Below are positions 22,925 to 60,942 of a DNA stretch of 64,000 nt, piece by piece. Source of the stretch: Alloascoidea hylecoeti (lineage: Eukaryota). Position 1 is the first letter of the stretch. Every line of letters begins with the position of its first letter. The notes under the pieces are model-generated. The model saw only the letters and a list, made by a program, of their open reading frames with translations. It was not told the DNA's origin and made no database searches. Position numbers and translations under genes: made by a program. The stretch is taken from the NCBI GenBank assembly GCA_001600815.1, contig BCKZ01000021.1, forward strand, positions 248,001 to 312,000. Reading direction: 5' to 3'.

Positions 22925-22983
22925 TTAGTAATCTTGAAGTGAGAGATCAATTAGTAATGTAGAAATGGCGGATGAATTAGTAA
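22925..22983. promoter_or_regulatory. Three Yap1/AP-1-type response elements (TTAGTAA) upstream of the SDR gene
   Basis: TTAGTAA at 22925, 22951 and 22977, with near-matches at ~22884 and ~22894, lying 230-290 bp upstream of the SDR ATG (22694). Confidence 0.6.
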
Positions 22984-35906: not shown

Positions 35907-36278
35907 TACCTCTTATAAATATTTGGTATCTGCTAATAATATGGTGATGATTGAGTGTTTGGTGGTTTCAAAAGAATTATATTATTATATCTTCAAAATC
36001 TGTAAGTCTACAACAATCAACCTTTTTTTTATCTAATCCAATAACCATTGATAAATTTCACGGTTGAGTTCCAGAACACGATCCCTTATTTACTAATCAC
36101 TAACTAATTAAACATACATTATTATTTCTTTTAAGAAATATGGTACCAAATAAAATGTACCTTCATACCAATTTCTTACTTTATAAGGCGTACCATTCAG
36201 AAACACTAAGCAATGTAGCATTTTGGTTCACACATGCTGGACTCATTAATATCATCTGTTTGAGGCTCTACAGAAATT

Positions 36279-36352
36279 GGGCGTCTGGTGTAGTTGGTTA
36301 TCACATTCGCTTAGCATGCGAGAGGTCCCCGGTTCGATTCCGGTGTCGTCCA
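36279..36352 (+). tRNA. tRNA-Ala(AGC)
   Basis: Cloverleaf with acceptor GGGCGTC/GTCGTCC-A and G3:U70, anticodon arm TTCGC-TTAGCAT-GCGAG, T arm CCGG-TTCGATT-CCGG, followed by a T-rich terminator. Confidence 0.97.
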
Positions 36353-36374
36353 TTTATCTTTTGTTTTTTATTAC

Positions 36375-36875
36375 GGAATTAATAAAAAAAAAAGGTGGAG
36401 AATCCTTCAAAAAATCAATAATAAAAAACAAGGTGATGTCGATTTCCTACATAGACTAAGTTTAAGAAATTATACCCATCACTAGACTCACATATTCAAT
36501 CAATGTAGAATAAACCCAATAATTATATTATATATTACATTTTATGGGAAAAGATTATCAACTAAATGAAATGATTTGTGATTCTACAAGAAACACAAAT
36601 GAATCAATTCAAATCAACAGTATAGGAGAAGCAATTAGAAATCTGAGAAACAAAAAAATATTCGAAATAACAACATTAGAATCGACAGACAAAGAACTTT
36701 TGACTGCAGTGAAAGCTGACATATACTTATGATCATACAAACTTATGGCATATTCTTAAATATCAAAGTCAAACAAAAAATCAACTTATGATAAATAAGC
36801 AAATAACACAACAGCAATATTAGCTATAAATTAAATAGTATAATAAAATATTAATAGTTAAAAAAATAAAAAAGC
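36375..36875 (+). mobile_element. 5'-truncated non-LTR retrotransposon (L1/Zorro/Ylli-like) ORF2 3' end with A-rich tail
   Basis: Broken frames give RWRILQKIN..DVDFLHRLSLRNYTHH*, HIFNQC, GKDYQLNEMIC..INSIGEAIRNLRN..FEIT, homologous to 54270-54650. A-rich tail at ~36860-36873. Confidence 0.68.
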
Positions 36876-36889
36876 AAAGTTAAATTTTT

Positions 36890-38300
36890 ATTGCTTTCCC
36901 TTCTGGTTTCTTTTTAACTACTTGGAAAATAAGACGATTGACAACTTCAAAGAGCAAATGAAATCGCAAGGAAAAACAGTAAAAATATTTTAACAGGGGT
37001 GACCAATTGGTCGCTTTTGCAGGACCTGACGCGTCAAAAATAATCAAAACAATGAATTCTTAGTCACTTGTTTAAGTGCTCACTATGGAAGAATCAATCC
37101 CTTGTTAAAAGTGGCAGTACTTACTACCGATACTCCCATCCATATTGCCGATGTGGAGAGAGAATTATCCTAAACAATTGGTTATCTTGCTATTCATTTA
37201 TGATACGGATAATCTTTCTTAGATCGTAAAAGCCCCAACTACATCTTAGTTGAAGTCCCCGAAAAGAGCACCATCGTACCGAAGGTAATAAATTTGAAGG
37301 TCCCACTTGAAGTATATGGGACAACTACTGTTTTTGTTGAACACTCTTTTCGTCTTCAGGTCAAAACCAATAGAAAGCTGTGTTGCATCCACTGCAATTC
37401 CCTTTCCCATGGAAAAACGAGTTGTCATCAGCAAACTATTGCTAAGCCTACTGGTAATCATTTGTCTACGGATCTTACCCGTGCAAGATCCGGAAAGGAA
37501 CGAGCCTCTAATCCACATCTCATAGTTTTACAAAAGGACATTAATGGGAATAATGAATTCATTGTTCCTAAGAAAACAGCTCGCAATGTTGCTCAAACAT
37601 TACATCCTGATACTGCAATCAATTCCTCTTTGAAAACGAATCCTTTTGACGTCCTCCAACAACTGATGTGAACTGATCCACCTCCGCAGACCTTGTATAA
37701 TCACCTTGAACTTGCATCTCCGAATAGAAACTCAGCCCCTCCTAAAAAGGCAAAAATCAAAAATCTAATGTGTCAAGGCCCTCTACACCCATTGAGGATG
37801 TTGATGCCATGGATATTACTGAATCGGAGGCTGAAGAGTCTTTGAATAGTGAATCTTCCGATTCTTCTGATAATTAAGATGTTGCAGTTGTACCAGAATT
37901 GGCATTAGATGCTACCCAATTGAGCATGACCTCACAAGTAAGATTACCATAACCCTAACGACATTGATGATGTTAATGCGAAGGACATTACAGATTCCGA
38001 AGCTGAAGGGTATCATGATAGCTATTCATTGGACCCAGATTTTGTATCAGATCTTCTTTCTGATAATGAGGATACTGCTGTGCAGTCATGGGTGTAGACG
38101 ACAATATCCTATTGAAGGAAGCATAAATAAACCAAAAAGAAAACCAAGTGATTAATATTACTGAAATACCTGAGAGGTTATTAGTATCCCCCGACAATAA
38201 TCCTGGCATTTCCAGACTTCTCCCTTCACGCAATAATCAGCATTCAAGCACGTAACTATAAATTCGGGAATCGTTAATTCCCGTAAACCAACCAAAACAC
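36890..38300 (+). mobile_element. Degenerate retroelement ORF1/gag-like relic
   Basis: Perfect CX2CX4HX4C zinc knuckle (CIHCNSLSHGKTSC, 37384-37425) followed by TNPFDVL, embedded in frames broken by stops. Boundaries are approximate. Confidence 0.6.
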
Positions 38301-38971
38301 TTGTTTATATTACATAATTAACATCCAAAAAGGTTATGATACGAAACACACCTTTTCAGGCAAAAACTCCTAGGAAAACCTCCATAGGATCACTTATTCT
38401 TGTAAACTGTTGCTTCTTCATAAAACACACTCTACCATATTTTTTTATATTTCGATTATGTAAAATCTTAACGTTCTAACGGAGATGATTTTGCTTCTTC
38501 TGGTTTATTCTTTGTGTGATGCTTTGGTTTCATCTTCGTTTTAGAGTTACTTGTATTGCGATCCTCATTTTCATTTTCATTATTGTCAAGATTATCTATG
38601 TCCATCGCTTGATCATCAGTCCGATAATTATCTGACTGTCATCACAATAGAGAATTCATCCGTTGATACATTTTCAGAATATTCGTCAATCTCTGCTCCT
38701 GATTCTGTAATGTTCATATTGTTTTTTTTCTTTTATTTTGTAGTATTTCGCTTGATTTCTCATTTGTAATTTCTTTTATTGAGGGACCTGCTTTATCTGG
38801 AACATTGTATACTTACTAAGAGCATTTCAATTTTCCATGGGATAATGCATTACATTTTACGCAGTAATTCTTACCTTTCAACATATAAAGGTAGTACTCT
38901 ATCTGAAAACAATCATGCCAACACCATGAATAAAGAAATAGATACCCTACCGATACTCGTCGATTGGAACG

Positions 38972-39230
38972 AAAAAAACAGTCGCAGACTATTCCAAGGC
39001 CAGCCACACCATAACACAGAGGATGACACCCGTCTTCGCAGTCAAACGGTAGGAGTTCTCTGCTGGATTGCTCCCCTGAAGAATATCTCCTGTACTTATG
39101 GCTCAAAGCTCTACAGATTACTCGTATAGAAACTAAGTGCCCACCGCCAGACTCGAACCGGACACCTCACGTGATGAGCACAGCTTAACACAGGCAAGTT
39201 GATCCACTTCCGCCACACGCCATTACAGCG
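38972..39230 (-). ncRNA. SCR1: Signal recognition particle RNA (7SL/scR1), copy A
   Basis: 5' CGCTGTAATGGC fungal Alu motif, B box GGTTCGAGTC, helix 6 with GTAA tetraloop, helix 8 CAGGGGAGCAATCCAGCAG (SRP54 site), ending in T7. Confidence 0.9.
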
Positions 39231-39500
39231 AAGGGTTCTGCGGTGCTCTTGACCACATTTGTTTTCCATTTTTCAGAATTTCACTATAGAGAGATTTGCT
39301 CAGAATTTACATAGTTTCTAGTTATATGATTTAATTGGAAAATATATGAAAAGTTAAAAAAAACTCAGTTAAATATTTTCTAGTTAGAAATTTTATTAGT
39401 AAAGACTTAAAAAATATGCCACATATAAAGTTTATATCAGATGAAAAAGAAGACACTAATATGATGGAAGTAAAATTGTAAAATTATATAAATAATTAAA

Positions 39501-42500
39501 TTAAAAAAACAACTCAATAAACTCATTCCAATTGAGCACTTCGTATTTCGGTGTGAAGCTGATACTGAATAATCGATTTTTTATCATCATCATATCTACC
39601 ACTTCTGTATCTGTATTTAACACAATATTCTTTTGAACAGCTAGTCTCATAATCTTTAACTGTTTTTCTACTGGCATAACATTTTCATTGGTTCGGGTTA
39701 TTTGAGATTCTACACATTTATTCAATTTTTCATGAAGTTCTGAGTCCGTTGTGAATAGCCTCAAGTCTCCCTTTGTCAAATCTCCCAAATACCATGATGT
39801 GCTTCTGCGTTGATTGCATAATAATGCATTTCCTTGATCTAGTAGTTTTATGTATCGATTTGCTATTAATTTTCTCTTGAGTTCAGAATTCAACCAAATC
39901 CCAAAACTGGTGTCAACTTTAACAGAGATCATTAGTATATCTTTCAATTCTAATGGATTGTGAATTGCTTCTGAAATACCCTCTATACTTTCTTTATTGA
40001 TGGTAAATGGGATGGATGAGAAGGCGGTTAAGTCATTCATCTTTTTTTCATAAATAGTCGTATAACCATATCGATAATTAGAATTTATGTCTACTTCCGT
40101 CGAATTTCTTTCAAAAATATCTGTATTCATGTTTGATTGAACATGTGTTGTTAAACTCATATTTAAACCTTTGGTGAGACTATCAGAATCCAGCAATGGG
40201 TTTATACCTTGTTTGTCCCTCTTTTTCAATTCATCTACTACATTTTTATCGACTTTTAAATTAAGATAGACTTCAGGAGAAGTTCTATTCAGTCTTTTGA
40301 TCGCATCAATTTCTTCGTCCATTATATCATTATCTAAATATTCTGAGAGATCGTCAGATGTTAGCTGATGTATGTGTAATATCCCACTTTTATCAATTTC
40401 AACTTTGGAATTTTCTTCGCGTATTGTAGATGTAAAATTTGAATATTCATACTTCAGCTCATATAATACATTATCTAGACAAATAGGGGTCTCGGGGATA
40501 TTATCGATTCTGTTATAAGTATTTGTAACTAATGTTGAAGATGATTCATAAATAAATCTGGGGTGTATTAATCTAATACAATCATATTCTCTCACCATTT
40601 TGTTTGGAATGAACTCAGTTCTCGTGGTTGAAGGTTCTGTTCCCTTTTTATCTGTGAGAATTCTTTCCACCCTATTATATAGTTGAACTACATCATTCAG
40701 TTTTCCATTTCTCAGCCCCTTTACTTCGGTGTTGATTCTATTTTCATGGCGTAATAAATGCTTGAATATATCCACATCATTAGAGTCTGAATTAATATAA
40801 CTAGTTTTAGGGAGGAGACCAAGAGTAACAGATAATGCATTATCTTTATTTAAGTCAGTATACCTTAGTTCTTTCATCTGGAACCTTTTTTCTAATGTTT
40901 TCTTTTGAACGAGCTTCATTTTATAAAGTTTCTGATAGTTAGGATTCAACATTTCTTCTAGGTGTCTTGTGTCACTATTTAATGTTCTTATGAACACTTC
41001 ATATGATTCAGCAGTAACATTACCTCGGGATTCTTCTGGAATATTCAAACGACTAAGTGTACGAGATTCTCGTGTATAAGTATTGGTAAAGGTTTTCGAA
41101 AATTTCTTGTCATCTGATATATTCAGACTGTTTAATGTCTTATTATAAATATTAGCTTTGAATCTTTGAAATAACGATCCAACTGAAGTGCTCATATATT
41201 CTGCTCTGAATTTACGTGAATTTCCTTTCAAAATTGTTTCGAATTTAAACAATATTTCCTTATCTTCCCTAATACCATGTTTTGTATAGACTGGTGGTAC
41301 TCCTGATCTAAGTGTATCATCCTTGGGATATCCAACATCGGAGAACGAGAGATTCCATTTCCTGAGAAATCCAAGATAATTAAACAGAACAATTTGTTTG
41401 GCTGCATGATGAGCACACCCACTGTTCGTTGAAGTGTGATATAAATTGATCACATCGTTATAATCTTGAAACATATTTCCACTTGTCGTAGAATTAATCA
41501 AACGGTTTACGAATTTAATTTCATTGGACCCAATACCATCTATAGATAAAAATTCTGAGTTAAATTCAACAAAATTGTTTGAAATAATGTTTTTGTATTC
41601 TGAAGTTTTAATTCCAAAATATATCAAGTAGTTTCCAATATTATGTAGGAATTTATCGATTTCCATTAGACTCAATCTTATATGGTATTCAATATTGAAA
41701 TTTGTTGTTGGCCGTAGGAGATTACATTGAATAAACAATGCTGCATCATCTGAGGTTAACATACTATCAACATTTATATTCACCATGTTCAGACTTCTAT
41801 CAAGATTTGTTATTTTAGAGTATACTACTTCCTTCAAGTCTCCCAGATAGGACTTAGTTGTCAATGCATGAAACATTGAACTTGTGTAATGAAATATGCC
41901 TTGTCCCATATGAAATCTCCCAATTTTCCCTGGTAAAGAATATCCACACTCAACTCGGTCATAGAGCTCCACGTTAAAAGGATGAACTTCAAATATCTTA
42001 TATTCGGATAATAGACATACTATCGCAGGAATAAACGCCTCTGTTGTATATCTTGACATCGTTGCTAACATTAATGAAAAGCACGCAGTAGACAGATTAG
42101 CACACCATTTTGTTTGATCCATTGTTAGCATTCTGCAATGAGCTGAATCTAAGGATTTATCAAATTTGCTACAAAAGTCTTTGAGCTTATCAGGTGAGTC
42201 TAAGTATTCGTTTCCGATATGCTTATTAACCTTCTTTGAGAAATGTTCAGCTACAAATTGTATTACCCTATATTCAGATGATAAAATTGAAACATCTCTG
42301 TTCCCCCCAGTCTGTGGCTTATTCATCATTCTCATTGTAATATCAATTGGTCCGGATTTTGATAGAATCTTATATACAAGTAATGGAAGATGTGATGTTC
42401 CATATAATTGACAAAGTACTTGAACAGAATCTGCACATATGGTTGTTTTCCCTTCAAAAGTATCTGTACTTGCTTTAGTAGTCAACAGATCGGTTATATT

Positions 42501-44897
42501 TATTGGCGTATAAGTCGTTTTAGAAATTTTAAAAACATCTGCAATCGCTTTCTTAATCTCAGAATATATTAAGATAATAGATAAAGGACACATGGTGAAT
42601 CGTTGATCCGTGAGCTTGGAAACGTGATCAACTTGATCAAAATATCTCCTATAGAAAGATATTAATGATTCGCCTCGATTTAGAGTGGTTATCCGGTTCT
42701 GAAAGGTGTCGAAAAGATCTCTTTTAATAACATCAAAATAGTCATTGAACATGTCCAACTCATCATATAAATCTGATAAAGAATCTCTCAAATGTTTTAA
42801 CTCTCCAAATGTTTGCGTTGGACAAAGATTAACCAGAAATGCTTCCCAACCAATGTGTTTGAATTCTAGACCCAATAATGGCGTTACTCCCATTTGCTCG
42901 GCATCCACTTTCAGCATATCAAGTATTAACCGAAGACTTAGCTTCTTGCAATGTTTACTTTTAATACTTCCTATGAATTTATCCTTCTGCTGTTTCAGTA
43001 ATGGTGATTTAACTAGATAACCAGTGACAAAATACCTCCATGGTTTCAAAACTTCAGATAAGCCCCAAGAATTTTCATTTAATATCCTTCCGTATAGACT
43101 GGTAAGGCCTTTTATAACGGATAAAATTGTTGGCTTTGGATATTTTCCAGCTTTAGTGAGGTTTAAATATACTGTGCTTATAAGTGCTACCAAGACATCT
43201 GGAGCTTTAAGAAAGGCTTCAATATGTGATTGTTTCCATATTCTGGTACATATTAGATTATTTTCTTCGAAAAATGATATTAAAACGTCACCCCAACCCT
43301 TTTGAACGACTTGACCTCTAATCATCACTTCAGCGTGTTTATTCGAATCCCTCCAGTGCAAGACTTTAAATGGGGTTTTGCTAGCCTTGACATCCAAGAT
43401 TGCAACAGCCACTCTTGAATTCATTCGCAGATCAGAATATTCTCTGGAGTTCTCTAATATTGTGACAATATCTGTGAGATCATCCTTTTCCAAAAGTGCA
43501 TAATGATTCGGATCTATTTTGTATCTAACGGAAGTCCCAGATTCTCTTTCTAACAGTTTACCACGATGGGGGCTACATGAGACAAACCGTGAAACATCAG
43601 GACTTTCGACATTTCCAGGTACAATATTATCAAAAGTAGATCTCCAACGAAAACGAAAATTACTTCGTTTGAGTCTGTCAAATGTATATTTCTTTATTAC
43701 GCGATCTTTTATTTTAGTCTTGATGAATTCATCTATTTTGAAAACTGATTGGTAGTTATTTTCCCTTCCAACATCAGGTTCTTTTATATCCATATATGTA
43801 TTATGATGGATTCGCATCCTGTATAAGCTTGAGGTAGCTTGGGATTTCCTTTCACAGCCGGGAACTTCTAGCTTATACGTTTCCTTGTCTAGTTCAATCT
43901 TTGTTTTGAAAGCTATTGAATCCATTCCCTCATAAACAAATTTAGTTTTATCATATTTTTTTTCTTGAAATAAATAATAGTCCGTTTCATAGAATTTCTC
44001 TTCTTGTGATGGTTCATTTGCGTAAGTAACTTTAATTTTTTCTGAAAGTTCTTTAATTAACTCATATCTCATGTTTTTCAATTCATAGTCATTTAAACTA
44101 GAGTTTAACTCACTTCTAATTTCAGCATTGACTATTCTTTCTCTAAAAACTTGGTGCGCAACAGATGAGTGAAAGTCTATTGTATTTCCATCTCGATCAG
44201 TTCCTGTCTTTCCTGAGAAGAAATCAAACATCTCTTTGGTAACCAAGTCTTTCTTTGAGTTAGAATTTAATAGACTATTCTTTTGGAGGTCTCTTTTCTT
44301 AAAACAATCATCCGAATTCATAGTATCTTCTATAGTGGACCAATGATGAATCAAGCTTTGATCAGTATCACTAACTGTTAAGAATTCATATTTCCAAATT
44401 GAAATCCTTGTCATCCCTTGAGGTGCAGGATCAATATCTTTTGGGTCTAGTTTGACAGATGATACATTAAAAAGAACTCTAGATTTTCCACTTTCAGTTG
44501 TAAAAAGTAAATCTGCTGCTGGTACATTTTCTGGTTGATATGCAGCTTTCCCATCTTTGATTGAAAGGATTAAACTCAGACATACGAGTTGGTGTAGCAT
44601 ATGAGAAGCAGATATGGACCCAAAATGAGTAGAAGTAGTGCATGAATAAATCTCTTCGGCTGTTTTCTTGAAAGTTCTAGGATCTGATACCAGTGGAATT
44701 GGCTCTAAAATAGGTGATGAACACGTTCCTATAGCTCTTTGAGATTGAATATCAAGATCACCATGTATAATGGTTTGAATAAAGACTGTATTGTCATCAT
44801 CCGATATAATTTGCAGTGACCCTTGAAGTGTGGAATTGGCTGTTTTGTTAAACGATTTTTTATATTTATTTGGTAATTCAATATCTCTGAAGCTCAT
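39501..44897 (-). CDS. Endogenous viral element: full-length L protein (RdRp) of a segmented negative-strand RNA virus (Bunyaviricetes-like)
   Basis: 1798-aa intronless ORF with motifs in canonical order: pre-A/F KPQTGGNRDVSI (~42290-42325), A DQTKW (42105-42119), B HMGQGIFHYTSS (~41877-41912), C TSDD (~41745-41756), D GIKTSEYK, E FVEFNSEF (~41550-41575). Confidence 0.93.
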   Translation of the reverse strand: MSFRDIELPNKYKKSFNKTANSTLQGSLQIISDDDNTVFIQTIIHGDLDIQSQRAIGTCSSPILEPIPLVSDPRTFKKTAEEIYSCTTSTHFGSISASHMLHQLVCLSLILSIKDGKAAYQPENVPAADLLFTTESGKSRVLFNVSSVKLDPKDIDPAPQGMTRISIWKYEFLTVSDTDQSLIHHWSTIEDTMNSDDCFKKRDLQKNSLLNSNSKKDLVTKEMFDFFSGKTGTDRDGNTIDFHSSVAHQVFRERIVNAEIRSELNSSLNDYELKNMRYELIKELSEKIKVTYANEPSQEEKFYETDYYLFQEKKYDKTKFVYEGMDSIAFKTKIELDKETYKLEVPGCERKSQATSSLYRMRIHHNTYMDIKEPDVGRENNYQSVFKIDEFIKTKIKDRVIKKYTFDRLKRSNFRFRWRSTFDNIVPGNVESPDVSRFVSCSPHRGKLLERESGTSVRYKIDPNHYALLEKDDLTDIVTILENSREYSDLRMNSRVAVAILDVKASKTPFKVLHWRDSNKHAEVMIRGQVVQKGWGDVLISFFEENNLICTRIWKQSHIEAFLKAPDVLVALISTVYLNLTKAGKYPKPTILSVIKGLTSLYGRILNENSWGLSEVLKPWRYFVTGYLVKSPLLKQQKDKFIGSIKSKHCKKLSLRLILDMLKVDAEQMGVTPLLGLEFKHIGWEAFLVNLCPTQTFGELKHLRDSLSDLYDELDMFNDYFDVIKRDLFDTFQNRITTLNRGESLISFYRRYFDQVDHVSKLTDQRFTMCPLSIILIYSEIKKAIADVFKISKTTYTPINITDLLTTKASTDTFEGKTTICADSVQVLCQLYGTSHLPLLVYKILSKSGPIDITMRMMNKPQTGGNRDVSILSSEYRVIQFVAEHFSKKVNKHIGNEYLDSPDKLKDFCSKFDKSLDSAHCRMLTMDQTKWCANLSTACFSLMLATMSRYTTEAFIPAIVCLLSEYKIFEVHPFNVELYDRVECGYSLPGKIGRFHMGQGIFHYTSSMFHALTTKSYLGDLKEVVYSKITNLDRSLNMVNINVDSMLTSDDAALFIQCNLLRPTTNFNIEYHIRLSLMEIDKFLHNIGNYLIYFGIKTSEYKNIISNNFVEFNSEFLSIDGIGSNEIKFVNRLINSTTSGNMFQDYNDVINLYHTSTNSGCAHHAAKQIVLFNYLGFLRKWNLSFSDVGYPKDDTLRSGVPPVYTKHGIREDKEILFKFETILKGNSRKFRAEYMSTSVGSLFQRFKANIYNKTLNSLNISDDKKFSKTFTNTYTRESRTLSRLNIPEESRGNVTAESYEVFIRTLNSDTRHLEEMLNPNYQKLYKMKLVQKKTLEKRFQMKELRYTDLNKDNALSVTLGLLPKTSYINSDSNDVDIFKHLLRHENRINTEVKGLRNGKLNDVVQLYNRVERILTDKKGTEPSTTRTEFIPNKMVREYDCIRLIHPRFIYESSSTLVTNTYNRIDNIPETPICLDNVLYELKYEYSNFTSTIREENSKVEIDKSGILHIHQLTSDDLSEYLDNDIMDEEIDAIKRLNRTSPEVYLNLKVDKNVVDELKKRDKQGINPLLDSDSLTKGLNMSLTTHVQSNMNTDIFERNSTEVDINSNYRYGYTTIYEKKMNDLTAFSSIPFTINKESIEGISEAIHNPLELKDILMISVKVDTSFGIWLNSELKRKLIANRYIKLLDQGNALLCNQRRSTSWYLGDLTKGDLRLFTTDSELHEKLNKCVESQITRTNENVMPVEKQLKIMRLAVQKNIVLNTDTEVVDMMMIKNRLFSISFTPKYEVLNWNEFIELFF

Positions 44898-47642: not shown

Positions 47643-49778
47643 TCAGTTTTCTTTATTATTTTCTAAATTTGTTTGAGTATTATTAGTATTAGCATTAGCA
47701 TTAGAATTAGAATTAATATTATTATTGGAATCATCATGTTGAGTATCATCATGTGATGAATTATCATTATCAATAGGTCCTAAATCATGATTTCTAATAA
47801 ATAATGTGCAAATTATTGCAGGTACACATAATATAGTACCAGTGATACATAATACTTTTTGAACATGCTTATAAGCATTAACTACCAGTTGTCTTTCTGT
47901 TGTTTCCCAAGTATATTTTTCAATAAAAGAAAAAGGTGAATCATAAGCAAATTGTCTAAGTGAATCCGGTAAACGTTTTGATATTTGTCTTGGTAATAGT
48001 TCTGTCCAAATTGCACCAGTTATTGCACTACCAAAAGCAGCACCAATATTAAAAGATGCTAAATAGATTGGTACAACAGTATGTAATTTATCAGGATCTG
48101 ATGAAACCTGAATTGATGCTTGTGCTGGATATGTAAATAAACCTGCTGCAAAACCTAAGAAACATAACGCACCAATTATACCTGAATGAGAATGTTCACT
48201 ACCACGAAATAACACTAACAATCCCATTGATGTAATCCAACAAAATGAACCAAAAGTAATAATTGGTTTCACATTTTTAACTTTTGTAATCATTAAACTT
48301 ATGAATGTACCAACTAAAACAGAAACAAAGGAATATAATGAAACAATTCGAGTTGCCGATTTAACTGATTCATGAACAGATATAACAAGAACAGTATACA
48401 TATAATCACCTTGCATATACCAAACAAGATTTAAAGACATTGCAATAATTAAAGCAGCCCAAATTCCTCTATTTCGAATTAAGTGAGATGTTACAATTGG
48501 ATAATCTGTACCAAACGTTTCCCATAATATAAACACTGGAACACAACATCCACCAACTACCAAAGGTGCAATTGTACTTGCTGAACTCCATGATCTTATT
48601 ATTCCACCTGATATAGTTAAAGGTACTAAGATTAAAATTTGTATTGCTGCTGCTAAAATTGTACCAATTGGATCTAAAGTGACTATAAATTTGACGACTT
48701 TGTTGATAGAGTGAAGATTCAAATTAGTGTTATTATTAATATTATTTTCATCTTTATTTTTATCAGCTGCATTTTTCCCTTTCTCATTTAAATTTATATG
48801 GTTATCTTGTTTATAATTTTGTTGATCCTTCAATGTTTTCCACTGATCAGTTTTAACTGCTTTGTATCGCATATGTAACAGGCATATAAGCAAAGGAATC
48901 GACATAACAGGCATTATAATTGCCCACATTCCAATACCCCATGACCATTTATCTCCTCCTAAAGCTTGGGCAATATCACCACCAATCCAAGTATTTACAA
49001 CAAACGGAATAGCTGGAACAAAATAACAAAATAGATTTGAATTAACACAAGTTAAATCTCCGATTAATAATTGTAAAGTTAATAGTAAACCTGTGTAACC
49101 GATTTGAAATAAAGTAGCACCGCCAGCGTAAGTTGAAACATTATTCGATTGAGATTCTACGAGGGTTCCGATTGAATAAAACAAAATGGATATGATTAAC
49201 ATTTCATGTCTTGGTAATTTTTCTTCCAATCTAGCCATCATTGGATGTATAGCGGCAGATACAGAACCATTTATCACATTAATTGTAGCTAATAATGAAT
49301 GTCTTGCAAAAGAGTTTGTAGCATAGGCTTGATAAACATTTCTTATTGTTAAATCCAATCCATAACTAAAAGTAACCAAAAATATACAAAAATATACAAA
49401 TGCTTGACCGATAGTTCCATATTGATTTGCGATTATCCGAACTTCCGTTTCAGGAAATTCATACCGATAATTATTGTCGCCTCTATCTTCATCCTCGTGA
49501 TGATGGTGGTGATGATGATGATGATGTTGTTGTGATGAGCCATTTGAATTGATATTATTGATATTAATATTATTCGTATGATAGGACAAACCACTATTGA
49601 TATGGTCTATTGAACTAAGAGAAGTTTCCAAATCTCCTTGTCGGGACTGAGTGTCGACGGAATTTTGAGACGGGACCAGATCATCAAAACTGATAGAATA
49701 CCGATCGCGGGATCGAGGTTGACTTGAGATGATGTCCAAGCCCGGGACCCCTACAGCATCCTGTGGCGAAAGGTTCAT
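47643..49778 (-). CDS. Siderophore-iron MFS transporter (ARN/SIT1 family)
   Basis: YGLD.TIR.VYQAYAT.SF..HSLL.T.NV, PF..NTWIGG, WSWGIGMWAII.P, W.MQGDY.YTVL, Y.SPF.FI..Y.W.T.ER..VV.AY..VQ..LCI.G. Confidence 0.92.
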   Translation of the reverse strand: MNLSPQDAVGVPGLDIISSQPRSRDRYSISFDDLVPSQNSVDTQSRQGDLETSLSSIDHINSGLSYHTNNININNINSNGSSQQHHHHHHHHHHEDEDRGDNNYRYEFPETEVRIIANQYGTIGQAFVYFCIFLVTFSYGLDLTIRNVYQAYATNSFARHSLLATINVINGSVSAAIHPMMARLEEKLPRHEMLIISILFYSIGTLVESQSNNVSTYAGGATLFQIGYTGLLLTLQLLIGDLTCVNSNLFCYFVPAIPFVVNTWIGGDIAQALGGDKWSWGIGMWAIIMPVMSIPLLICLLHMRYKAVKTDQWKTLKDQQNYKQDNHINLNEKGKNAADKNKDENNINNNTNLNLHSINKVVKFIVTLDPIGTILAAAIQILILVPLTISGGIIRSWSSASTIAPLVVGGCCVPVFILWETFGTDYPIVTSHLIRNRGIWAALIIAMSLNLVWYMQGDYMYTVLVISVHESVKSATRIVSLYSFVSVLVGTFISLMITKVKNVKPIITFGSFCWITSMGLLVLFRGSEHSHSGIIGALCFLGFAAGLFTYPAQASIQVSSDPDKLHTVVPIYLASFNIGAAFGSAITGAIWTELLPRQISKRLPDSLRQFAYDSPFSFIEKYTWETTERQLVVNAYKHVQKVLCITGTILCVPAIICTLFIRNHDLGPIDNDNSSHDDTQHDDSNNNINSNSNANANTNNTQTNLENNKEN

Positions 49779-52739
49779 AACACACGCGATCTACAAGTGA
49801 GGAGGTTAGAAAAAGACTCAGATAAAAGCAATCGATTATCTTGCTTCTGCAAGTATTTGATTAAGGATAAATGAATAAGCGATGTATGTTTCATGGTTTA
49901 TCATCCAATTAGGAATATAGCATCCTATATTGAGCCAGATTCAGCCGTATCTGGAGGTAAAGGATCAGATGTAATTTATAAAAAGGGGTAGTTTTCACCC
50001 AATTCGTAAATAAAGGTGAGTCATGCATGCGTGAAATCCTATTTCAATCCCGATTATCCCAATAATTTTAAAATTCTTAATCTTATAATTGCGTTCATTT
50101 CATTCATTTTCGAGCTTAAGTAGAGAAATGGTTAACTAGTGAAGAGGATAGCCGATCATTCTTAATCAGCAAGGTCGAATATTTAATTCAAAATGTAATC
50201 GCAATCAAGTGGATTCCATGACAAGATATTATGGTATGTTGGGCATGGTAAAGATTTGATGGAACAGAATATTAATGATCATATTATTTCCCAGACAAGA
50301 AAGACTACTACATTCATCATTCTATCATTCACTAAACAAGATTAGTGATAACAATAATTTTATCATTTCCCTGAACAGGACCTAGCGATAGCCGTAATCT
50401 TATCATCCCACAAACAGCACTAGTTATAACAATCAATATGTGCCAATACCCCTATGAGTGAACCTTCAATTTTTTTCAATGTATAATGATCAATTTATAT
50501 AAATGGACATGATTCTTTTTTGCGATTAGTTGAACTACCATAGAAAGCTCTTTCCTAGTTAGAATCTACTTATTTGATTCACATAAAGTTGATGATGTTT
50601 TTGTTAGGTTGCTAGAATCTGATGACATGGCAAATCTTAACGACTGACCTTTTTGGTGTAGTGGACGACAATCTCTATTGGTTATTACGTCACTCAAACC
50701 ATTTTACAAATTCACTACATATTGAACAGGTAGGATACCATGCTAAGCATTGCTCCAACAGGTATGATTACACCCTAGCTTATGAGAATTTAGATATTAT
50801 GAAATCTACCATATATTGGGGAATTATGGCCAAGTCAATGGCACTGAACTTGGTTACAGAGTAGATAATTTCAATTGAAGTCGATGGATACTACAACATG
50901 AGTTATGTGACGAGAATTTTGAATCTAATATATATATATGCATTTAATTTGAAGGGAAATTAACATTAAGTAGTAGCACCAACAGTTTCAATTTTAGTGA
51001 TAGCTGAGCATGAACTTTGACTAGTATTTTATTTCAGACAAATTACCGGAATATGAAATTTAAACAGTTTCAACTTTTCAAGTGCTGATCAGGAAAAAAT
51101 GCATAATTAACTAGGATATGTGGTACCCCTATAACTAATAGACACCCTATTGGCCTCGTTCTTTCCTCCGCATGGTTTCATTTGATTGTTTAATATTATT
51201 GAAAAGGAATTTAAAGGATCATAAAATTCATAATATTAAAAAAAAAAATGCTTTCGATTCCGCTTTGTAAGCCGTAGCTGCCATACGATATGTCAAGGTT
51301 TCTCGGATTATTTCAAAACTTGTTCCAAACTCTAATATCCAGCTCTAAATTCTCTAATTCTCGTTGTTGTTATATTTATGGACCCAGCATTCTATAGAGA
51401 TAACTTCAAAATTACACACAGGTCAGCTGAACATGCTTGCTCTTGAAGTAAAGTTAAAGTTCGTAAGGAGAAACTATGGGTCATCCTAGTTGTCTTTTTC
51501 GGTACATATAAAATTTGGTCAGGACGAGGTATGATCACCTCAAAGTCTTTAATCGATAAGCAAATTTGCTTAAATGATCCCCTAGCACTTCTACAAAACG
51601 AATGGTTATCATAAAGTAAGTTTCCTGTTCTGGGGTTCATACTTTATTAGAATGAATGGTTCTTAATATGGCCATTTGAATTTCCAAGGATGTGATTGAC
51701 TGATTGATGGTAGTAATTTGATAATATTCGATACATATTTTGTATCGTAGAGATAGGGCTGTAAAATGTGTTAAAGGAAAGGGAAGGATATGTGTGATGG
51801 TGTAAGCATGATATATCTTCAATGATCGATCCCGGTAAATTGAAAGTTGTTATGGATCTAGATATATTTTTACGCTTACACTGTACATGTTGCTTCTCTA
51901 AGAAGACAGAAACTCTATAATGGATGAAAATATGACATTAAGGTCGTAAGAAATGTAAACAGTAAACTCATTACGGCCGTTTGGCAGTAAAATATCCGCT
52001 CTAAAAACATCTTTGGTGTCCGATTATATTACTTTATCCGAGTACTATAGGCAGTTGAAGCCTTGAAGGTATAACTATTGGCGCCAGTACCTTAACTTGA
52101 TAAATCTGGTATCAATATCTATAATGATAGGATTATAATATTAATCTATAGGCCTATATAGCTATAGACCTTAAGTCCATAATACTCCATAGATTCGAGC
52201 CACTAATATTGCAGATATTACAATATTAATGTTTGTTTAGAAATTCCATGAATAATTACGTAATACGTATAACGGGAACATTTTAATTACCACTTTGAGA
52301 ACAGGGTTTCATTGGGGATGTCAGAACTTAAAAGTTTTATGAACGCTAACTATAAGTTCCAATTGCAAACTGTCACCTGTGATAGACTTATTTTAAATTT
52401 GTAATTACAATTGCAAACATTTTTTAATTCGATAAATATCTATCCCTTGATCTATTTCTTTTATTGAAGTGGAGATTACAATATTTACAATACTCCAGTT
52501 TAGAACTCAATTAAATTTAAATTCAGATTAATTAATTATATAAATATTATTGAGAAAACTAAAAACTTTAATTCAGAGAACAAATGCATAAAAATAAAAT
52601 AAAACAAATACAGAGGTAGATAGGAAATTTAATTAATTATTTTCTATTTTAAAATTTCATTAATCATATTTTCATTGTTATTAAGTGAATATTATTAATT
52701 ATAATTAATTTATTTTGTTTACTATATCTATTAATAGAT

Positions 52740-53378
52740 TTAAAGTAAAAGAGCAACGAGACCTGCGGCAACACCGAAGGCACTTGAACCAACTAAGATG
52801 GCACCACTGTTAGATGTACCGGAAGCTGATGCTGAACCGGAAGCGGAACCAGAGGCTTCAGATGAGCCGGAAGCTGAGGAAGATTTAGAAGATTTGGAAG
52901 AAGACTTGGAAGAACCCGAGCCAGTAGCTTCAGATGAACCAGTAGCTTCTGAAGAACCAGTAGCAGTAGCTTCTGAAGAACCAGTAGCAGTAGCAGCCTC
53001 GGAAGCAGAACCGGAAGCAGCCTCGGAAGCAGATTCAGTGCCAGTACTAGTTGCTTTGGTAGTTTTACCAGTTGCAGTGGCAGTAGCAGATGTGGTAGGA
53101 TTCTGTGGGACAGCAGAATTTGTGTAGAGATAGTCAGTTCTTCTATTAGATTGGTAATATTCATTATAATCTCTTAATAAAGTGGAGTAGTAAGCAACAT
53201 TTGAGGCAGAAATAGCACAACTGTTGTAAACACAGGTAAGCAAAGCATTTTCGTCAAGCTCATTTCCATTGTAGTCTTCAACACAAGAAGAAGCACAAGC
53301 TGGGTACCCGGTAACAGAGAAATCTGCGGCATAAGCCCGGGCAGCAAGGAGCATGATTGGTAGAATGAAAGATTGCAT
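52740..53378 (-). CDS. GPI-anchored Ser/Thr/Ala-rich cell-wall protein with a 4-Cys, partially CFEM-like N-terminus
   Basis: Signal peptide; YPACASSC...TCVYNSC; (T/A)GSSEA repeats; C-terminal NSG plus a hydrophobic GPI signal. Confidence 0.82.
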   Translation of the reverse strand: MQSFILPIMLLAARAYAADFSVTGYPACASSCVEDYNGNELDENALLTCVYNSCAISASNVAYYSTLLRDYNEYYQSNRRTDYLYTNSAVPQNPTTSATATATGKTTKATSTGTESASEAASGSASEAATATGSSEATATGSSEATGSSEATGSGSSKSSSKSSKSSSASGSSEASGSASGSASASGTSNSGAILVGSSAFGVAAGLVALLL

Positions 53379-53888
53379 GTTTAAAGATGTGAAAACGAGA
53401 GTAGAGGCTCAGCGAATAGTTCAAGTATTAGGGATATAAAAAATCTGAAAGAAAAAAAAATAAAGGAGGCTTGGAGGATTTAAATACAAATATATACGCC
53501 TGGAATTCTGGAGAAGAGAAAGGAAGAAATAATAATTTCGGCAGTTTTGCAGGTTTTCTTCCTGTGACCGCCACGATCTTCTGGGTGCTCATTTGTCCTG
53601 GTAGTAATTGCTAGCTAATATGGTTACTGCATGCATCTTCTTGGCATTTGCAGGCGTAATATCCACTGCGGAGCTGTTAAAATGGCTATTTCCCTCCATA
53701 AGTCTATAAATAGTTACAAATATGACCTGTCTCCTAGCTAATCATACTATAATAGTGCTTTGTTGCATCGATTAATAATTGAAATTTGAATTTATTATAA
53801 TTAATTTTTCATCAAGAATGCCGCTGTTGGATGAAAGGAAAATGGAGACAGGAAAAACAAGTGTGTTCAAGAGCACCGCAGAACCCTT

Positions 53889-54146
53889 CGCTGTAATGGC
53901 GTGTGGCGGAAGTGGATCAACTTGCCTGTGTTAAGCTGTCCTCATCACGTGAGGTGTCCGGTTCGAGTCTGGCGGTGGGCACTTAGTTTCTACACGAGTA
54001 ATCTGTAGAGCTTTGAGCCATAAGTACAGGAGATATTCTTCAGGGGAGCAATCCAGCAGAGAACTCCTACCGTTTGACTGCGAAGACGGGTGTCATCCTC
54101 TGTGTTATGGTGTGGCTGGCCTTGGAGTAGTCTGCGACTGTTTTTT
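53889..54146 (+). ncRNA. SCR1: Signal recognition particle RNA (7SL/scR1), copy B
   Basis: Same motifs as copy A, with three substitutions counted by eye; ends in T6. Confidence 0.9.
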
Positions 54147-54149
54147 ATG

Positions 54150-54660
54150 AAATAATAACAACCATTAAAAATGGCGTTTAATACAAAATGTACAGATCAA
54201 AGATGATCAAGACTCACAAATGACGATATTTAGACAGACAGCCGCTCGTTATAATAGCACATTAGTCCCTTTTACAACAAATTGGAAAACATGGTGGGGA
54301 TTCTTAGCAAAGATAAACAAAGATAAACAAAGAAAAGATCAAAGAAAATCCTGGATCAGTGGATTTTACACCGGCTAAACATACGAAATTATTCTCATCA
54401 TTGGGAATTTAAATCCAAACATCACATTAATGGATCACTATGTTTTCAACCAGGTATAGAAACAGAATTGCATATATTTAATAAATGTGAAATCAAGAAA
54501 ATGATATTCAAAACCCTATATGGTACAGATGTAACTTTGGAAGATTTGTTATGCCCGGCGATAACGAATCATGAGATTATCAGAAACTTGAGTTTGATTT
54601 CTGAGATAATATGGAATATAAGAGATTCATTACCCAGATATGAGATTACCTTGGCTTATC
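54150..54660 (+). mobile_element. 5'-truncated non-LTR retrotransposon ORF2 3' end (zf-RVT-like zinc domain)
   Basis: NWKTWWGFLAKIN, VDF/HRLNIRNYSHHW, LCFQPGIETELHIFNKC (C..ET..H.F..C), SEIIWNIR; frameshifted. Confidence 0.72.
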
Positions 54661-55344
54661 TCACTTATAATATATTGCCGGAATTGGGTTGCTGTTCTAC
54701 ATGCATATGGTACATGTATTGCATATGAATTCGGGTCACCTCTATTACGTTACTTATAAAATAGCCCATGAAGAGAGTTATTCCCTCAAGAGTTCTTCTC
54801 TAATCTTCCTTGTCTTTCAATAATCAATAATTTCAACATGATCCTTAAGCTTCAGTCGATCCCTCGTTACGTAGGCATGTTTGGTATACTAGTGATGTTA
54901 CTTAAGCTTGAATGTAAGCATTCAGGACCAACGATTACAATAGTACAGGAATATTAATGCTTACATTCAAATTCATTGTTTGGTTAATAACCATAATGAA
55001 AGGACAGATTAATTATAAAAAAATATTAATCCCTATAAACTGGCTACTAGTTTGCTCCTAGATCACGATAGTGCGTTCCCAATTGCAACAGGATAATTTT
55101 ATCGTGAAGTTTATAAAAATGATCCTGGTACCAGTTGGTGCCTTTAACTTCTAATTTGTTCTGTATCACAGAGATACTACTTCTCGTTTTTTGACCGATC
55201 GGAGAATAAACATCGCGTGCACCAAAAGCCGGGTAAGAATAACAACCGTACATTCACGCAAACCATCAAAAAAAAAAGTGGAAAAAGTGCGATAGAAAAA
55301 TTCAAGTTAAAAAACAAAACAAAACAAAACAAAAAAAATGAGCA

Positions 55345-60020: not shown

Positions 60021-60942
60021 GAAATCAACTGGATCAGCTCATCAATCAAGGTCTATTTTATCCAGGTCTTAGCCCTATCCTAGGCTATTTTTCGTTGGTG
60101 TAGCAAATTACGTCGTATCTAAAAATCAGAATTACGAATCGTTGCTGATTATAGAAGCGAAAACTCAATTGCAACACAGTCTCTGCTACATTCATCTTAC
60201 CCTTTCCAACCATTTTCAATCATAGTTGCTACAACACGTTTTAAATCTCTCACTACCTTTCTTTGGAATGATTTAGTATGTTATTATTTAGAGAATAGCA
60301 ATGCTATGCATGAATGATTCACAGCTTCTTCTCTGATAAGAATTGAATCATGCAGGACCGTTTTTTAATCCAAAAATTATGCATCACTACTAATATTGGT
60401 CTGGCGATTATACTACCCTTTTCTTGAGAAACCCACTTCAGTGCAATTTGGTAAGAGGCTTGAGAAAGATCAATGGTACTAAAATACGTACTGTTCGCTG
60501 ATATTCTAATTCATTCCGAAACCTTTAAAAAAATGGTGAGAGATTCAAAACTTGTTACTACATATGCATATGAAAAAAACCAGCTTAAGCATCATCTAAA
60601 AAATCAAGAAATCTCATTTATTCCTACAAACAAGTGATACCTTTTTCGGATTTATTATATCTGATAAATGACTCAAAGTTAGTCCACACAAATTCGAAAG
60701 GATTACATATTGGCCATTATTATCTGATATTCTTAAGTTTGATCAATTTTGAAACGGGAAGGTGAATGTAGCAGAGATTGTGTTGCAAATTGCAATTGAG
60801 TCTTCGCTTCTATAATCAGCAACCATTCGTAATTCTGATTTATTTTTCATAGATACAAGGAAACTGATGAACACCAACGAGATTCGAGAATTAGGATTTG
60901 AATAAAGAATACGCTGATTAATGAGCTGATCCAGTTGAATTC
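60021..60942. mobile_element. Foldback element with ~190-bp imperfect inverted arms and a ~540-bp non-coding spacer
   Basis: 60021-60208 is the reverse complement of ~60749-60942 (e.g. tcaactggatcagctcat; aaatcagaattacgaat.gttgctgattatagaagcgaa.actcaattgcaa; tctctgctacattca). Confidence 0.75.

What the first reader, a model, noticed from the sequence alone, without database searches (positions are those of the whole stretch)
36353..54660. Homologous LINE 3' fragments sit directly behind the terminators of two different Pol III genes
Seen: both tRNA-Ala (ends 36352) and SRP RNA copy B (ends 54146) are followed closely, in the same orientation, by 5'-truncated fragments of one non-LTR family. 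The matches are DFLHRLSLRNYTHH vs DF-HRLNIRNYSHH, HIFNQC vs HIFNKC, and G.D..L...C...I.E.I.N.R...EIT. The copies are diverged, suggesting independent insertions. Established: yeast Ty1 and Ty3 target upstream of Pol III genes, Dictyostelium TRE3 non-LTR elements target downstream of tRNA genes, and Pol III head plus LINE tail is the SINE architecture. Inference: a yeast L1-like family that targets Pol III 3' flanks or T-tracts, or forms proto-SINE chimeras.
Basis: partly seen in the sequence, partly recalled or inferred. Interest (0 to 1): 0.7.

Follow-up and report, generated by a model that had tools for sequence, protein, structure and literature searches.

The report
Yeast LINE tails behind Pol III genes
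Two decayed tail-ends of a jumping gene (an L1-type LINE) sit just behind a tRNA gene and a signal-recognition-particle RNA gene in a yeast chromosome, which hints, but does not prove, that this element prefers to land behind genes read by RNA polymerase III.

Summary
tRNA-Ala (36278-36352) and SRP RNA copy B (53888-54146) are each followed, in the same orientation, by a decayed 5'-truncated C-terminal ORF2 fragment of one multi-copy family. An outside family member (P0001) matches fragment B at E=1e-46 and fragment A at E=6e-9. It gives a weak but near full-length zf-RVT match (E=0.0017, below Pfam's cut-off). The two fragments belong to different subfamilies and start at different points, so they are independent insertions.

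The RNA-chimera or proto-SINE reading is disfavoured. Both terminators are intact. Fragment A is separated from the terminator by a 14-nt spacer plus an A10 tract and has A-tracts on both sides, as Zorro3 insertions do. The two SRP genes share about 62 nt of upstream flank, so they are DNA paralogs, not retrocopies. Targeting of terminator T-tracts does not fit the orientation.

A real preference for the 3' flank of Pol III genes, like Dictyostelium TRE3, is the best remaining reading (about 0.5). It rests on one window. No genome, full-length element, empty site or RNA data could be obtained.

In passing: an intact 1798-aa bunyavirus-like L gene lies in the chromosome beside SRP copy A.

The parts
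36278..36352 (+). tRNA-Ala(AGC) gene, canonical
   Evidence: ARAGORN; Rfam RF00005, 46.2 bits
36359..36369 (+). Pol III terminator T4-G-T6 in the tRNA trailer
   Evidence: read from the sequence
36370..36393 (+). 14-nt non-LINE spacer (36370-36383) followed by the A10 tract (36384-36393) at the 5' junction of LINE fragment A
   Evidence: sequence; A-tract list. It is one of only 7 A/T runs of 9 or more in the 64 kb.
36394..36732 (+). LINE fragment A: decayed ORF2 C-terminus. It begins at the WW motif, has one in-frame stop and at least one frame change, lacks about 21-28 codons of the zinc-finger region, and ends at the family's stop position.
   Evidence: ORFs; P0001 tblastn E=6e-9; alignment A1; up to 8 paralogous contigs in one run at 36620
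36733..36873 (+). Putative 3' UTR of fragment A ending in an A7TA6 tail (36860-36873). Other family copies diverge from this copy after 36722.
   Evidence: sequence; loose ends behind 36722 in 3 contigs of X1 and 2 of X4. Assignment is inferred.
37213..38097 (+). Decayed CCHC zinc-knuckle (37384-37425) plus acidic-tail pseudo-ORF. Possibly LINE ORF1-like; family not established.
   Evidence: ORFs; no Pfam family; Atlas nearest cluster zf-CCHC_4 at 0.85, a lead only; single copy by depth
38468..38971 (-). Second decayed CCHC-knuckle plus acidic pseudo-ORF. It starts directly behind the terminator of SRP copy A, in the same orientation as that gene.
   Evidence: ORFs; knuckle matches the + strand copy at E=5.6e-5, 10 of 17 residues identical; DNA-level similarity not significant
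38972..39293 (-). SRP RNA gene copy A: T7 terminator 38972-38978, RNA to 39231, and about 62 nt of upstream flank shared with copy B
   Evidence: Rfam 96.6 bits; 293 bp at 98.3% to copy B; alignment
53826..54146 (+). SRP RNA gene copy B: shared upstream flank, RNA 53888-54140, T6 terminator 54141-54146
   Evidence: Rfam 99.3 bits
54169..54728 (+). LINE fragment B: decayed ORF2 C-terminus. Its true 5' edge lies somewhere between 54147 and about 54215. It carries a 22-nt duplication, a 2-nt deletion and a 15-nt deletion that removes two finger cysteines. The 3' end lies before 54879; no clear poly-A tail.
   Evidence: ORFs; P0001 E=1e-46 and P0003 E=7e-12; indels and multi-copy depth 76.7 against about 23

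Best explanation
The host is a budding yeast. Fragments A and B are two independent, dead, 5'-truncated 3' ends of a multi-copy L1-type non-LTR retrotransposon. They belong to two subfamilies of about 50% amino-acid identity.

They entered by ordinary target-primed reverse transcription into DNA just behind resident, DNA-encoded Pol III genes. Fragment A lies 24 nt behind the tRNA-Ala terminator. Fragment B starts between 0 and about 70 nt behind the terminator of SRP RNA copy B (its reading frame is open from 23 nt behind it). Both point the same way as the gene.

At the tRNA the element used an A-tract, which now lies on both sides of it. This is how Candida Zorro3 inserts.

The recurrence is best explained by an integration preference for the 3' flank of Pol III genes. 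That is functionally like Dictyostelium TRE3. It may work through contact with the Pol III machinery or the nucleosome-free region it maintains, combined with use of A-tracts.

Shown: homology, family membership, copy multiplicity, geometry, intact terminators, A-tract flanks of A, and the DNA-level nature of the SRP paralogs.

Inferred: that the family is a LINE (no RT or endonuclease part was seen), that the placement reflects targeting, and how targeting works.
For: 1. Family and homology: P0001 and P0003 against the window; alignment A1; zf-RVT match of P0001 over nearly the whole profile.

2. Multi-copy: at 36620 the alternative base is carried by 8 contigs in X1, 4 in X2 and 3 in X4, with depth 248.6 against a baseline of about 23. 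At 54469 it is 5, 1 and 2 contigs.

3. Both family copies found in the window (2 of 2) lie within 45 nt behind 2 of its 3 Pol III genes, in sense orientation. Only 0.28% of the window is such territory.

4. The third Pol III gene, SRP copy A, is followed immediately by a CCHC-knuckle pseudo-ORF in sense orientation.

5. Similarity between SRP copies A and B fades gradually upstream, to about -62 with indels. It stops abruptly at the end of the T-run. That pattern is expected if foreign DNA was inserted right behind the terminator of one or both copies.

6. Fragment A is preceded by A10 and followed by A7TA6, sharing a 9-mer. This matches the Zorro3 pattern of poly-A on both flanks (PMC1965478 passages; PMC7175516 passages).

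7. One contig of metagenome run X2 joins 36353, just past a tRNA-Ala 3' end, to B-like sequence at 54275. This may be a further tRNA+LINE locus. It is a weak lead.

8. Host is fungal: Pol gamma scores 1001 bits to 9c51 against about 620 bits to human POLG; Fungi_SRP match.
Against: - There is only one window. No genome is held, so the distribution of the other copies is unknown, and the window was picked after the pattern was seen.
- Zorro3, the best-studied yeast LINE, shows no association with tRNA genes among 30 new insertions (PMC1965478).
- Fragment B has no clear A-tract, tail or target duplication, and its 5' edge is known only to within about 70 nt.
- No RT or endonuclease domain of the family was seen. 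No Pfam RT/EN hit came from the 62 of 97 intergenic frames of 50 aa or more that were scanned. Four of the remaining 35 had already been scanned; about 31, mostly overlapping the RNA genes, were never scanned. No longer relatives were found in two 'longer' protein searches. The LINE identity therefore rests on a sub-threshold zf-RVT match.
- The CCHC fragments are single-copy by depth and are not assigned to the family.
- The X2 joint has a 30-nt side, was laid at 82% likeness in a metagenome, and is absent from X1 and X4.
- All three DNA samples show the same structure. No empty site was seen.
Confidence: 0.5

Rival explanations
1. There is no recognition of Pol III. The family simply inserts at A-tracts or in nucleosome-free AT-rich intergenic DNA, as Zorro3 does. 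Two such sites happen to lie behind Pol III genes, where insertions are also harmless and so retained.
For: A10 and A7TA6 flank fragment A. Zorro3 targets poly-A with no tRNA link. The window was chosen after the fact. The whole tRNA-Ala to SRP-A spacer is gene-free debris.
Against: Only 1 of the 7 A/T runs of 9 or more in the window lies behind a Pol III gene. Fragment B has no such run at its junction. Two of two copies in the same geometry, plus sense-oriented debris behind the third Pol III gene, is improbable under this model.
Confidence: 0.2
2. RNA-level chimeras. The LINE reverse transcriptase switched template, or an RNA ligation occurred, from LINE RNA to a Pol III transcript. This would create [Pol III RNA]-[LINE 3' end] retrocopies, as in mammalian U6/L1 or Magnaporthe WEIRD/MGL chimeras. 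That is a possible first step towards a SINE.
For: The geometry is the same as in U6/L1 chimeras: a full-length small RNA, in sense, 5' of a 5'-truncated LINE (bioRxiv 10.1101/2025.02.02.635956 passages, which also lists 7SL and tRNA chimeras). Fungal LINE chimeras exist (PMC2104539 abstract). Zorro3 switches templates in S. cerevisiae (PMC7175516 passage). SRP A/B identity ends exactly at the T-run.
Against: SRP copies share flank to about -62 upstream of the RNA start. A retrocopy should begin at the transcript's 5' end. At the tRNA, 14 untranscribed bases and an A10 tract lie between the T-run and the LINE. No direct repeat of 6 nt or more flanks the tRNA+LINE unit. The intact terminators would stop Pol III before the LINE tail, so the unit could not act as a SINE.
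Confidence: 0.12
3. Endonuclease-independent capture. LINE cDNA was pasted into chromosome breaks, which are frequent at Pol III genes because these genes stall replication forks.
For: The spacer between tRNA-Ala and SRP A is a patchwork of fragments truncated at both ends, in both orientations. Fragment B lacks a tail and a target duplication. An RNA-virus-derived gene and a short high-copy retroposon end also lie beside SRP A.
Against: Both family fragments, and the debris behind SRP A, are sense-oriented. Fragment A keeps the family's stop codon and an A-rich tail and sits in an A-tract, as a normal insertion would.
Confidence: 0.1
4. The fragments are not LINE-derived. They are relics of some other repeated CCHC-finger gene family.
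For: The window fragments hit no Pfam family. P0001's zf-RVT score is below the cut-off. No RT-bearing relative was found. The AlphaFold model was useless, with pLDDT 43.1.
Against: The zf-RVT match covers profile positions 18-83 of 85 with the Cys/His pattern. The family is multi-copy with variable 5' starts and an A-rich end.
Confidence: 0.05

Closest known systems
Zorro3 (and Zorro1/2), L1-clade LINEs of Candida albicans
   Same: A yeast L1-type element with a C-terminal Cys/His finger in ORF2. Fragment A lies in an A-tract with A-runs on both flanks, as Zorro3 insertions do. 5'-truncated copies occur (PMC1965478; PMC7175516).
   Different: No detectable sequence similarity. A phmmer search of 1.84 billion proteins with fragment B found only two short relatives and no Zorro ORF2. 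Zorro3 shows no link to tRNA genes. Zorro1/2 are subtelomeric.
TRE3 (and TRE5, NLTR-A/B) tRNA-gene-targeted non-LTR elements of dictyostelid amoebae
   Same: L1-group LINEs with an ORF2 zinc finger, found a short distance downstream of Pol III genes. TRE3 lies 14-450 bp, typically about 100 bp, behind tRNA genes (PMC5006619; PMC5911963).
   Different: The host is an amoeba, not a fungus. TRE3 targeting is shown genome-wide for tens of copies; here there are two copies in one window. The distances here are shorter (24 nt and at most about 70 nt behind the terminator), and one target is an SRP RNA gene. No homology was tested. The review's table of Pol III-targeting elements lists no fungal non-LTR element.
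LINE/small-RNA chimeric retrocopies (U6/L1, 7SL/L1, tRNA/L1 in mammals; WEIRD/MGL in Magnaporthe)
   Same: Order and orientation: small Pol III RNA, then the LINE 3' end.
   Different: Here the small-RNA parts are genes with native flanks and terminators, a spacer and an A-tract separate head and tail, and no flanking repeat encloses the pair. In mammals tRNA/L1 chimeras mostly hold antisense tRNA halves.
Ty1-Ty4, Tca8/beta, Tj1: fungal LTR retrotransposons targeted to Pol III genes
   Same: Pol III genes serve as safe havens in a compact yeast genome.
   Different: Those are LTR elements using an integrase, and they lie upstream of the gene. Here a non-LTR element lies downstream.

Membership tests
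L1-type non-LTR retrotransposon (LINE) | Reverse transcriptase domain in ORF2 | tested here: inconclusive
   No RT Pfam hit in the 62 of 97 intergenic frames scanned or in the fragments. Both copies are 5'-truncated downstream of where RT would be. No longer relative was found.
L1-type non-LTR retrotransposon (LINE) | APE-type endonuclease at the ORF2 N-terminus | not testable with these tools
   No full-length copy is in the window and no genome is held.
L1-type non-LTR retrotransposon (LINE) | C-terminal Cys/His finger (Pfam zf-RVT) | tested here: inconclusive
   P0001 gives E=0.0017, 19.4 bits, below the cut-off of 27.5, but covers profile positions 18-83 of 85. The window copies have lost part of the finger. 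The Atlas's nearest named cluster is zf-RVT at 0.95, a lead only.
L1-type non-LTR retrotransposon (LINE) | Dispersed multi-copy family with variable 5' truncation and an A-rich 3' end | tested here: met
   3-8 contigs per run at 36620 for the A type and 1-5 at 54469 for the B type. A and B start at different ORF2 positions. Fragment A has an A7TA6 tail about 130 nt after the stop. Fragment B has no clear tail.
Zorro3-type poly-A-tract insertion | Poly-A tract at both the 5' and 3' junction, with no other target duplication | tested here: inconclusive
   Met for fragment A: A10 at 36384-36393 and A7TA6 at 36860-36873. Not seen for fragment B, where there is only an A-rich stretch at 54150-54169.
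TRE3-like Pol III-downstream-targeted LINE | Most genomic copies lie within a narrow window downstream of Pol III genes | not testable with these tools
   No genome is held and the metagenome scan was empty. In the window 2 of 2 family copies qualify.
TRE3-like Pol III-downstream-targeted LINE | The targets are resident, functional Pol III genes | tested here: met
   Canonical tRNA with a T4GT6 terminator. The SRP copy scores above the Rfam cut-off and has paralogous upstream flank to about -62.
LINE/Pol III-RNA chimeric retrocopy or SINE | The small-RNA part starts at the transcript's 5' end, without native upstream flank | tested here: not met
   SRP A and B share about 62 nt upstream of the RNA start. 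This could not be tested for the tRNA.
LINE/Pol III-RNA chimeric retrocopy or SINE | Direct fusion of the RNA 3' end to LINE sequence, with one target duplication around the pair | tested here: not met
   At the tRNA a 14-nt spacer and A10 lie between the T-run and the LINE. No shared word of 6 nt or more flanks the pair. The junction at SRP B is unresolved within about 70 nt.
LINE/Pol III-RNA chimeric retrocopy or SINE | Head and tail are transcribed as one Pol III unit | tested here: not met
   T4GT6 and T6 terminators stand between head and tail. No RNA run holds the region, so read-through could not be examined directly.

The most novel reading that the evidence does not exclude
A budding-yeast L1-type LINE family has evolved position-specific, orientation-specific integration a few tens of bases behind Pol III terminators, at both tRNA and SRP RNA genes. 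This would be convergent with Dictyostelium TRE3. It would be the first non-LTR element in fungi targeted to Pol III genes, and the first known to use an SRP RNA gene as a landmark. Use of both gene types would point to recognition of the Pol III machinery or of termination, rather than of tRNA sequence.
Probability: 0.4. Interest if true: 0.7.

Novelty: new variant of a known kind. Interest (0 to 1): 0.5.

Why it matters
Targeting of Pol III genes as safe havens is known in fungi only for LTR retrotransposons, which use an integrase and land upstream. For LINEs it is known only in social amoebae. A yeast LINE that lands behind Pol III terminators would be a new, independent invention of safe-haven targeting. 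It would use a different integration chemistry (target-primed reverse transcription) in an organism group where genetics is easy. It could show which Pol III factor or chromatin feature a LINE ribonucleoprotein can read. If the pattern is not genome-wide, the finding is two ordinary dead LINE tails.

Tried and rejected
- Whole genome: none is held, so the genome-wide test could not be run.
- Full-length reference element: phmmer of fragment B against 1.84 billion proteins gave only P0001 and P0003, plus one spurious Ig-repeat protein, P0002. 'Longer' word-index searches with P0001 and with alignment A1 gave nothing. Cluster look-up gave no names.
- Metagenome contigs scanned with A1: 236 pattern matches, none confirmed.
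- Earlier notes of this scan: none for this genome or sequence. A word search returned only unrelated cases.
- Sequencing runs: no RNA holder listed. The one RNA metatranscriptome laid (X7) put only 11 short low-likeness pieces on the stretch, so read-through transcription could not be examined.
- Empty sites: no polymorphism was seen among X1, X2 and X4.
- DNA-level alignments: A against B, the 3' UTRs, the SRP-A downstream flank against the SRP-B downstream flank, and the two CCHC fragments were all no better than shuffles.
- Structure: AlphaFold2 of P0001 with the 4-row alignment gave pLDDT 43.1 and pTM 0.28, too poor for a fold search. None was run.
- Tripartite chimera idea, [viral L gene]-[SRP RNA]-[LINE]: dropped. 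The SRP genes are DNA paralogs with native upstream flank, and an unrelated antisense repeat lies between the viral gene and SRP A.

Full report
**Host and setting**

The window is from a budding yeast.
- GC content is about 32%.
- Both SRP RNA copies match the fungal SRP model.
- The 1278-aa ORF at 55345-59181 is DNA polymerase gamma. It scores 1001 bits to PDB entry 9c51 against about 620 bits to human POLG.

I checked this because earlier notes of this scan record 'yeast-like' LINE windows that turned out to be Naegleria. No whole genome is held for this window. Everything below rests on the 64 kb, on outside protein libraries, and on contigs of four public runs.

**The observation**

The window has three Pol III genes:
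- tRNA-Ala(AGC) at 36278-36352, + strand
- SRP RNA copy A at 38974-39231, - strand
- SRP RNA copy B at 53888-54145, + strand

Copy B needs one frameshift to read 'DF' before 'HRLNIRNYSHH'.

Within the window, A against B is only marginally significant: E=2.4e-4 and 4.5e-4 among 160 query pieces. The decisive evidence comes from outside.
- A phmmer search of 1.84 billion proteins with the 133-aa frame of B returned P0001 (126 aa, 91% identity) and P0003 (78 aa, 49%). It also returned one spurious Ig-repeat protein.
- Searched back on the window, P0001 hits B at E=1e-46 and A (36387-36482) at E=6e-9. P0003 hits B at E=7e-12.
- The four sequences align colinearly to the end of the frame.

P0001 keeps a Cys-x2-Cys ... 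His-x4-Cys finger. It matches Pfam zf-RVT over profile positions 18-83 of 85, at E=0.0017 and 19.4 bits, which is below the cut-off of 27.5. The window copies themselves hit no Pfam family, because both have lost part of the finger.

The 'zf-RVT' label is plausible but sub-threshold.

**The family is repeated in the genome**

I laid Logan contigs of two isolates of the same organism (X1, X4) and of a wood-decay metagenome (X2) on 36000-55500 at 82% likeness.
- The A-type tail is covered by up to 8 extra contigs in X1 at 36620. Depth there is 248.6 against a baseline of about 23.
- The B-type fragment is covered by up to 5 extra contigs at 54469. The bin depth is 76.7.
- Other copies lack B's 22-nt duplication at 54318.
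- Other copies carry 2 bases missing from B at 54366.
- Other copies carry 15 bases missing from B at 54438. These encode part of the finger.

B is therefore a decayed member of a family with more intact relatives. A lacks about 21-28 codons of the finger region and has an in-frame stop.

A and B cannot be aligned as DNA. They are about 50% identical as protein, and they begin at different ORF2 positions.

**Junction anatomy**

Behind the tRNA the sequence reads, in order:
- 6 nt of trailer
- T4-G-T6 at 36359-36369
- a 14-nt spacer
- A10 at 36384-36393
- LINE sequence from 36394, which corresponds to the WW motif of the family

The frame ends at the family's stop position, 36730-36732. An A7TA6 run follows at 36860-36873.

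A-tracts on both sides with no other target duplication is the pattern reported for Zorro3 of Candida albicans. Zorro3 integrates into poly-A tracts, and even its 5'-truncated copies begin with poly-A (PMC1965478 passages; PMC7175516 passages). A10 is one of only 7 A or T runs of 9 or more in the whole window.

Behind SRP copy B the T6 run ends at 54146. The LINE reading frame is open from 54169, and paralogous contigs cover at least 54215 onward. The junction therefore lies between 0 and about 70 nt behind the terminator. No clear A-tract, tail or duplication marks B. Multi-copy depth has ended by the last depth bin, 54879-55500.

**Are the Pol III genes resident genes or retrocopies?**

SRP copies A and B share 293 bp at 98.3%.
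- There are three differences inside the RNA.
- Similarity continues upstream to about -62, with two indels and a few mismatches.
- Downstream, similarity stops abruptly at the end of the T-run.

Upstream flank shared beyond the RNA start means these are DNA-level paralogs, not reverse-transcribed copies of the RNA. A gradual decay upstream with an abrupt stop at the terminator is what insertion of foreign DNA right behind the terminator, in one or both copies, would produce.

The tRNA has a normal trailer and terminator. No word of 6 nt or more is shared between the 40 nt before the tRNA and the DNA after the LINE tail.

Together with the spacer and A10, this speaks against the chimera reading, even though the order and orientation match U6/L1-type chimeras (bioRxiv 10.1101/2025.02.02.635956 passages; PMC2104539 abstract). 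With T4GT6 and T6 in place, Pol III would not read into the LINE tail, so neither unit could work as a SINE.

Targeting of terminator T-tracts is also unlikely. An element that uses an A-tract on its own sense strand would lie antisense at a T-run.

**The third Pol III gene**

Directly behind the T7 run of SRP copy A, on its strand, lies an open frame with a CX2CX4HX4C knuckle followed by an acidic stretch (38971 down to 38468). A related knuckle plus acidic pseudo-ORF lies on the + strand at 37213-38097. The knuckles match at E=5.6e-5, with 10 of 17 residues identical.
- They hit no Pfam family.
- They are single-copy by depth.
- They do not align as DNA.
- The Atlas's nearest cluster is zf-CCHC_4 at 0.85, which is only a lead.

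They may be ORF1 relics of older LINE insertions. Zorro ORF1 carries zinc knuckles (PMC3956500 passages). I could not establish this. The whole 2.6-kb spacer between the convergent tRNA-Ala and SRP A genes looks like retroelement debris.

**How unlikely is the placement?**

Only 0.28% of the window lies within 60 nt downstream of its three Pol III genes. Both family copies in the window lie there, in sense orientation.

One X2 contig joins position 36353, one base past a tRNA-Ala 3' end, to B-like sequence at 54275. Its shorter side is 30 nt and its depth is 19.5. This may be another tRNA+LINE locus. The tool warns that such joints in metagenomes at low likeness are unreliable, and X1 and X4 do not show it.

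Against a real preference:
- Zorro3 shows no tRNA association.
- The window was noticed after the fact.
- The other copies could not be placed.

I therefore put about 0.5 on a real preference for Pol III 3' flanks. A-tract or open-chromatin insertion without Pol III recognition gets 0.2, RNA chimeras 0.12, break capture 0.1, and 'not a LINE' 0.05.

**Comparison with what is known**

Functionally the closest system is TRE3 of dictyostelids. These are L1-group LINEs found 14-450 bp behind tRNA genes (PMC5006619 passages). A 2018 review's table of Pol III-targeting elements lists only LTR elements for fungi and only amoebal non-LTR elements (PMC5911963 passages). My search for 'non-LTR retrotransposon' with 'downstream of tRNA genes' returned 5 papers, all on Dictyostelium or general reviews. 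Within that library I found no report of a fungal LINE associated with Pol III genes. Subscription journals are not covered.

Membership in L1/Zorro could not be tested beyond the finger. If real, the pattern is a new variant of a known kind.

**Seen in passing**

- The 1798-aa ORF at 39501-44897 (- strand), between the two SRP copies, is an uninterrupted bunyavirus-like L (RdRp) gene.
  - Residues 780-1280 have 16 relatives at E=1e-92 to 3e-21. These are proteins of 1133-2150 aa. The 13 with a recorded contig lie on contigs of about 4.7-5.9 kb.
  - Several carry Pfam Bunya_RdRp or are named bunyavirus-like L proteins.
  - PDB hits are phenuivirus-type L proteins at the polymerase motifs.
  - DNA contigs of X2 and X4 run from inside the gene into the host flank.
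- A very high-copy A-tailed repeat end lies at 39290-39363, 59 nt from the 5' end of SRP A.

Noticed in passing
window 39501-44897 (- strand): An intact 1798-aa ORF that is a full-length bunyavirus-like L protein (RdRp) gene inside the yeast chromosome. Residues 780-1280 have 16 relatives at E=1e-92 to 3e-21; the 13 with a recorded contig lie on contigs of about 4.7-5.9 kb. Several carry Pfam PF04196 or are named bunyavirus-like L proteins. The best identity is 43%. PDB hits are phenuivirus-type L proteins over the polymerase motifs. The ORF itself gave no Pfam hit. Contigs of X2 (39334-47476) and X4 (43675-48423) bridge it to host DNA. It is an endogenous viral element with an unbroken 5.4-kb frame, so it is either recent or under selection. 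It lies between the inverted SRP RNA copies.
   Followed up: partly
window 39290-39363 (+ strand): A short, very high-copy repeat end: 23-30 contigs per run, with summed depth about 300 times baseline at 39328. It ends in an A8 run that is longer and followed by variable flanks in other copies. It looks like the 3' end of an A-tailed retroposon (LINE or SINE). It lies 59 nt from the 5' end of SRP copy A, on the opposite strand. It has no second copy in the window and no similarity to fragments A or B.
   Followed up: partly
window 38972-39293 and 53826-54146: The SRP RNA gene is present twice, as an inverted pair pointing outward, 14.6 kb apart. The copies are 98.3% identical over 293 bp and share upstream flank to about -62. 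The pair brackets the viral L gene and an MFS transporter gene and could mediate inversion of that block. In X2 the copy-B contig carries some copy-A bases. That may be gene conversion or an assembly path through the other copy.
   Followed up: partly
window 60021-60209 (+) and 60748-60942 (-): An inverted pair of decayed frames, 73% identical as DNA, with an '...LR.VADYRSE...' motif (translations). By recall this motif resembles the RT of Ty3/gypsy-type LTR retrotransposons. There was no Pfam hit at E<=0.01, and no Pol III gene is nearby.
   Followed up: no
window 20022-24452: A stretch with scattered N and a 220-N gap. It holds local duplications: 21756-22152 against 23618-24034, and 22573-22770 against 24255-24452. 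It also holds broken frames for an ABC-transporter ATPase (20286-20897) and a short-chain dehydrogenase (21938-22399). This is probably an assembly-poor duplicated gene cluster.
   Followed up: no
run X2, contig joint 36353 to 54275: A metagenome contig appears to join a tRNA-Ala 3' end to B-like LINE sequence. Its shorter side is 30 nt and its depth 19.5. It is not seen in the isolates X1 and X4. It may be another tRNA+LINE locus in a related strain, or an artefact.
   Followed up: no
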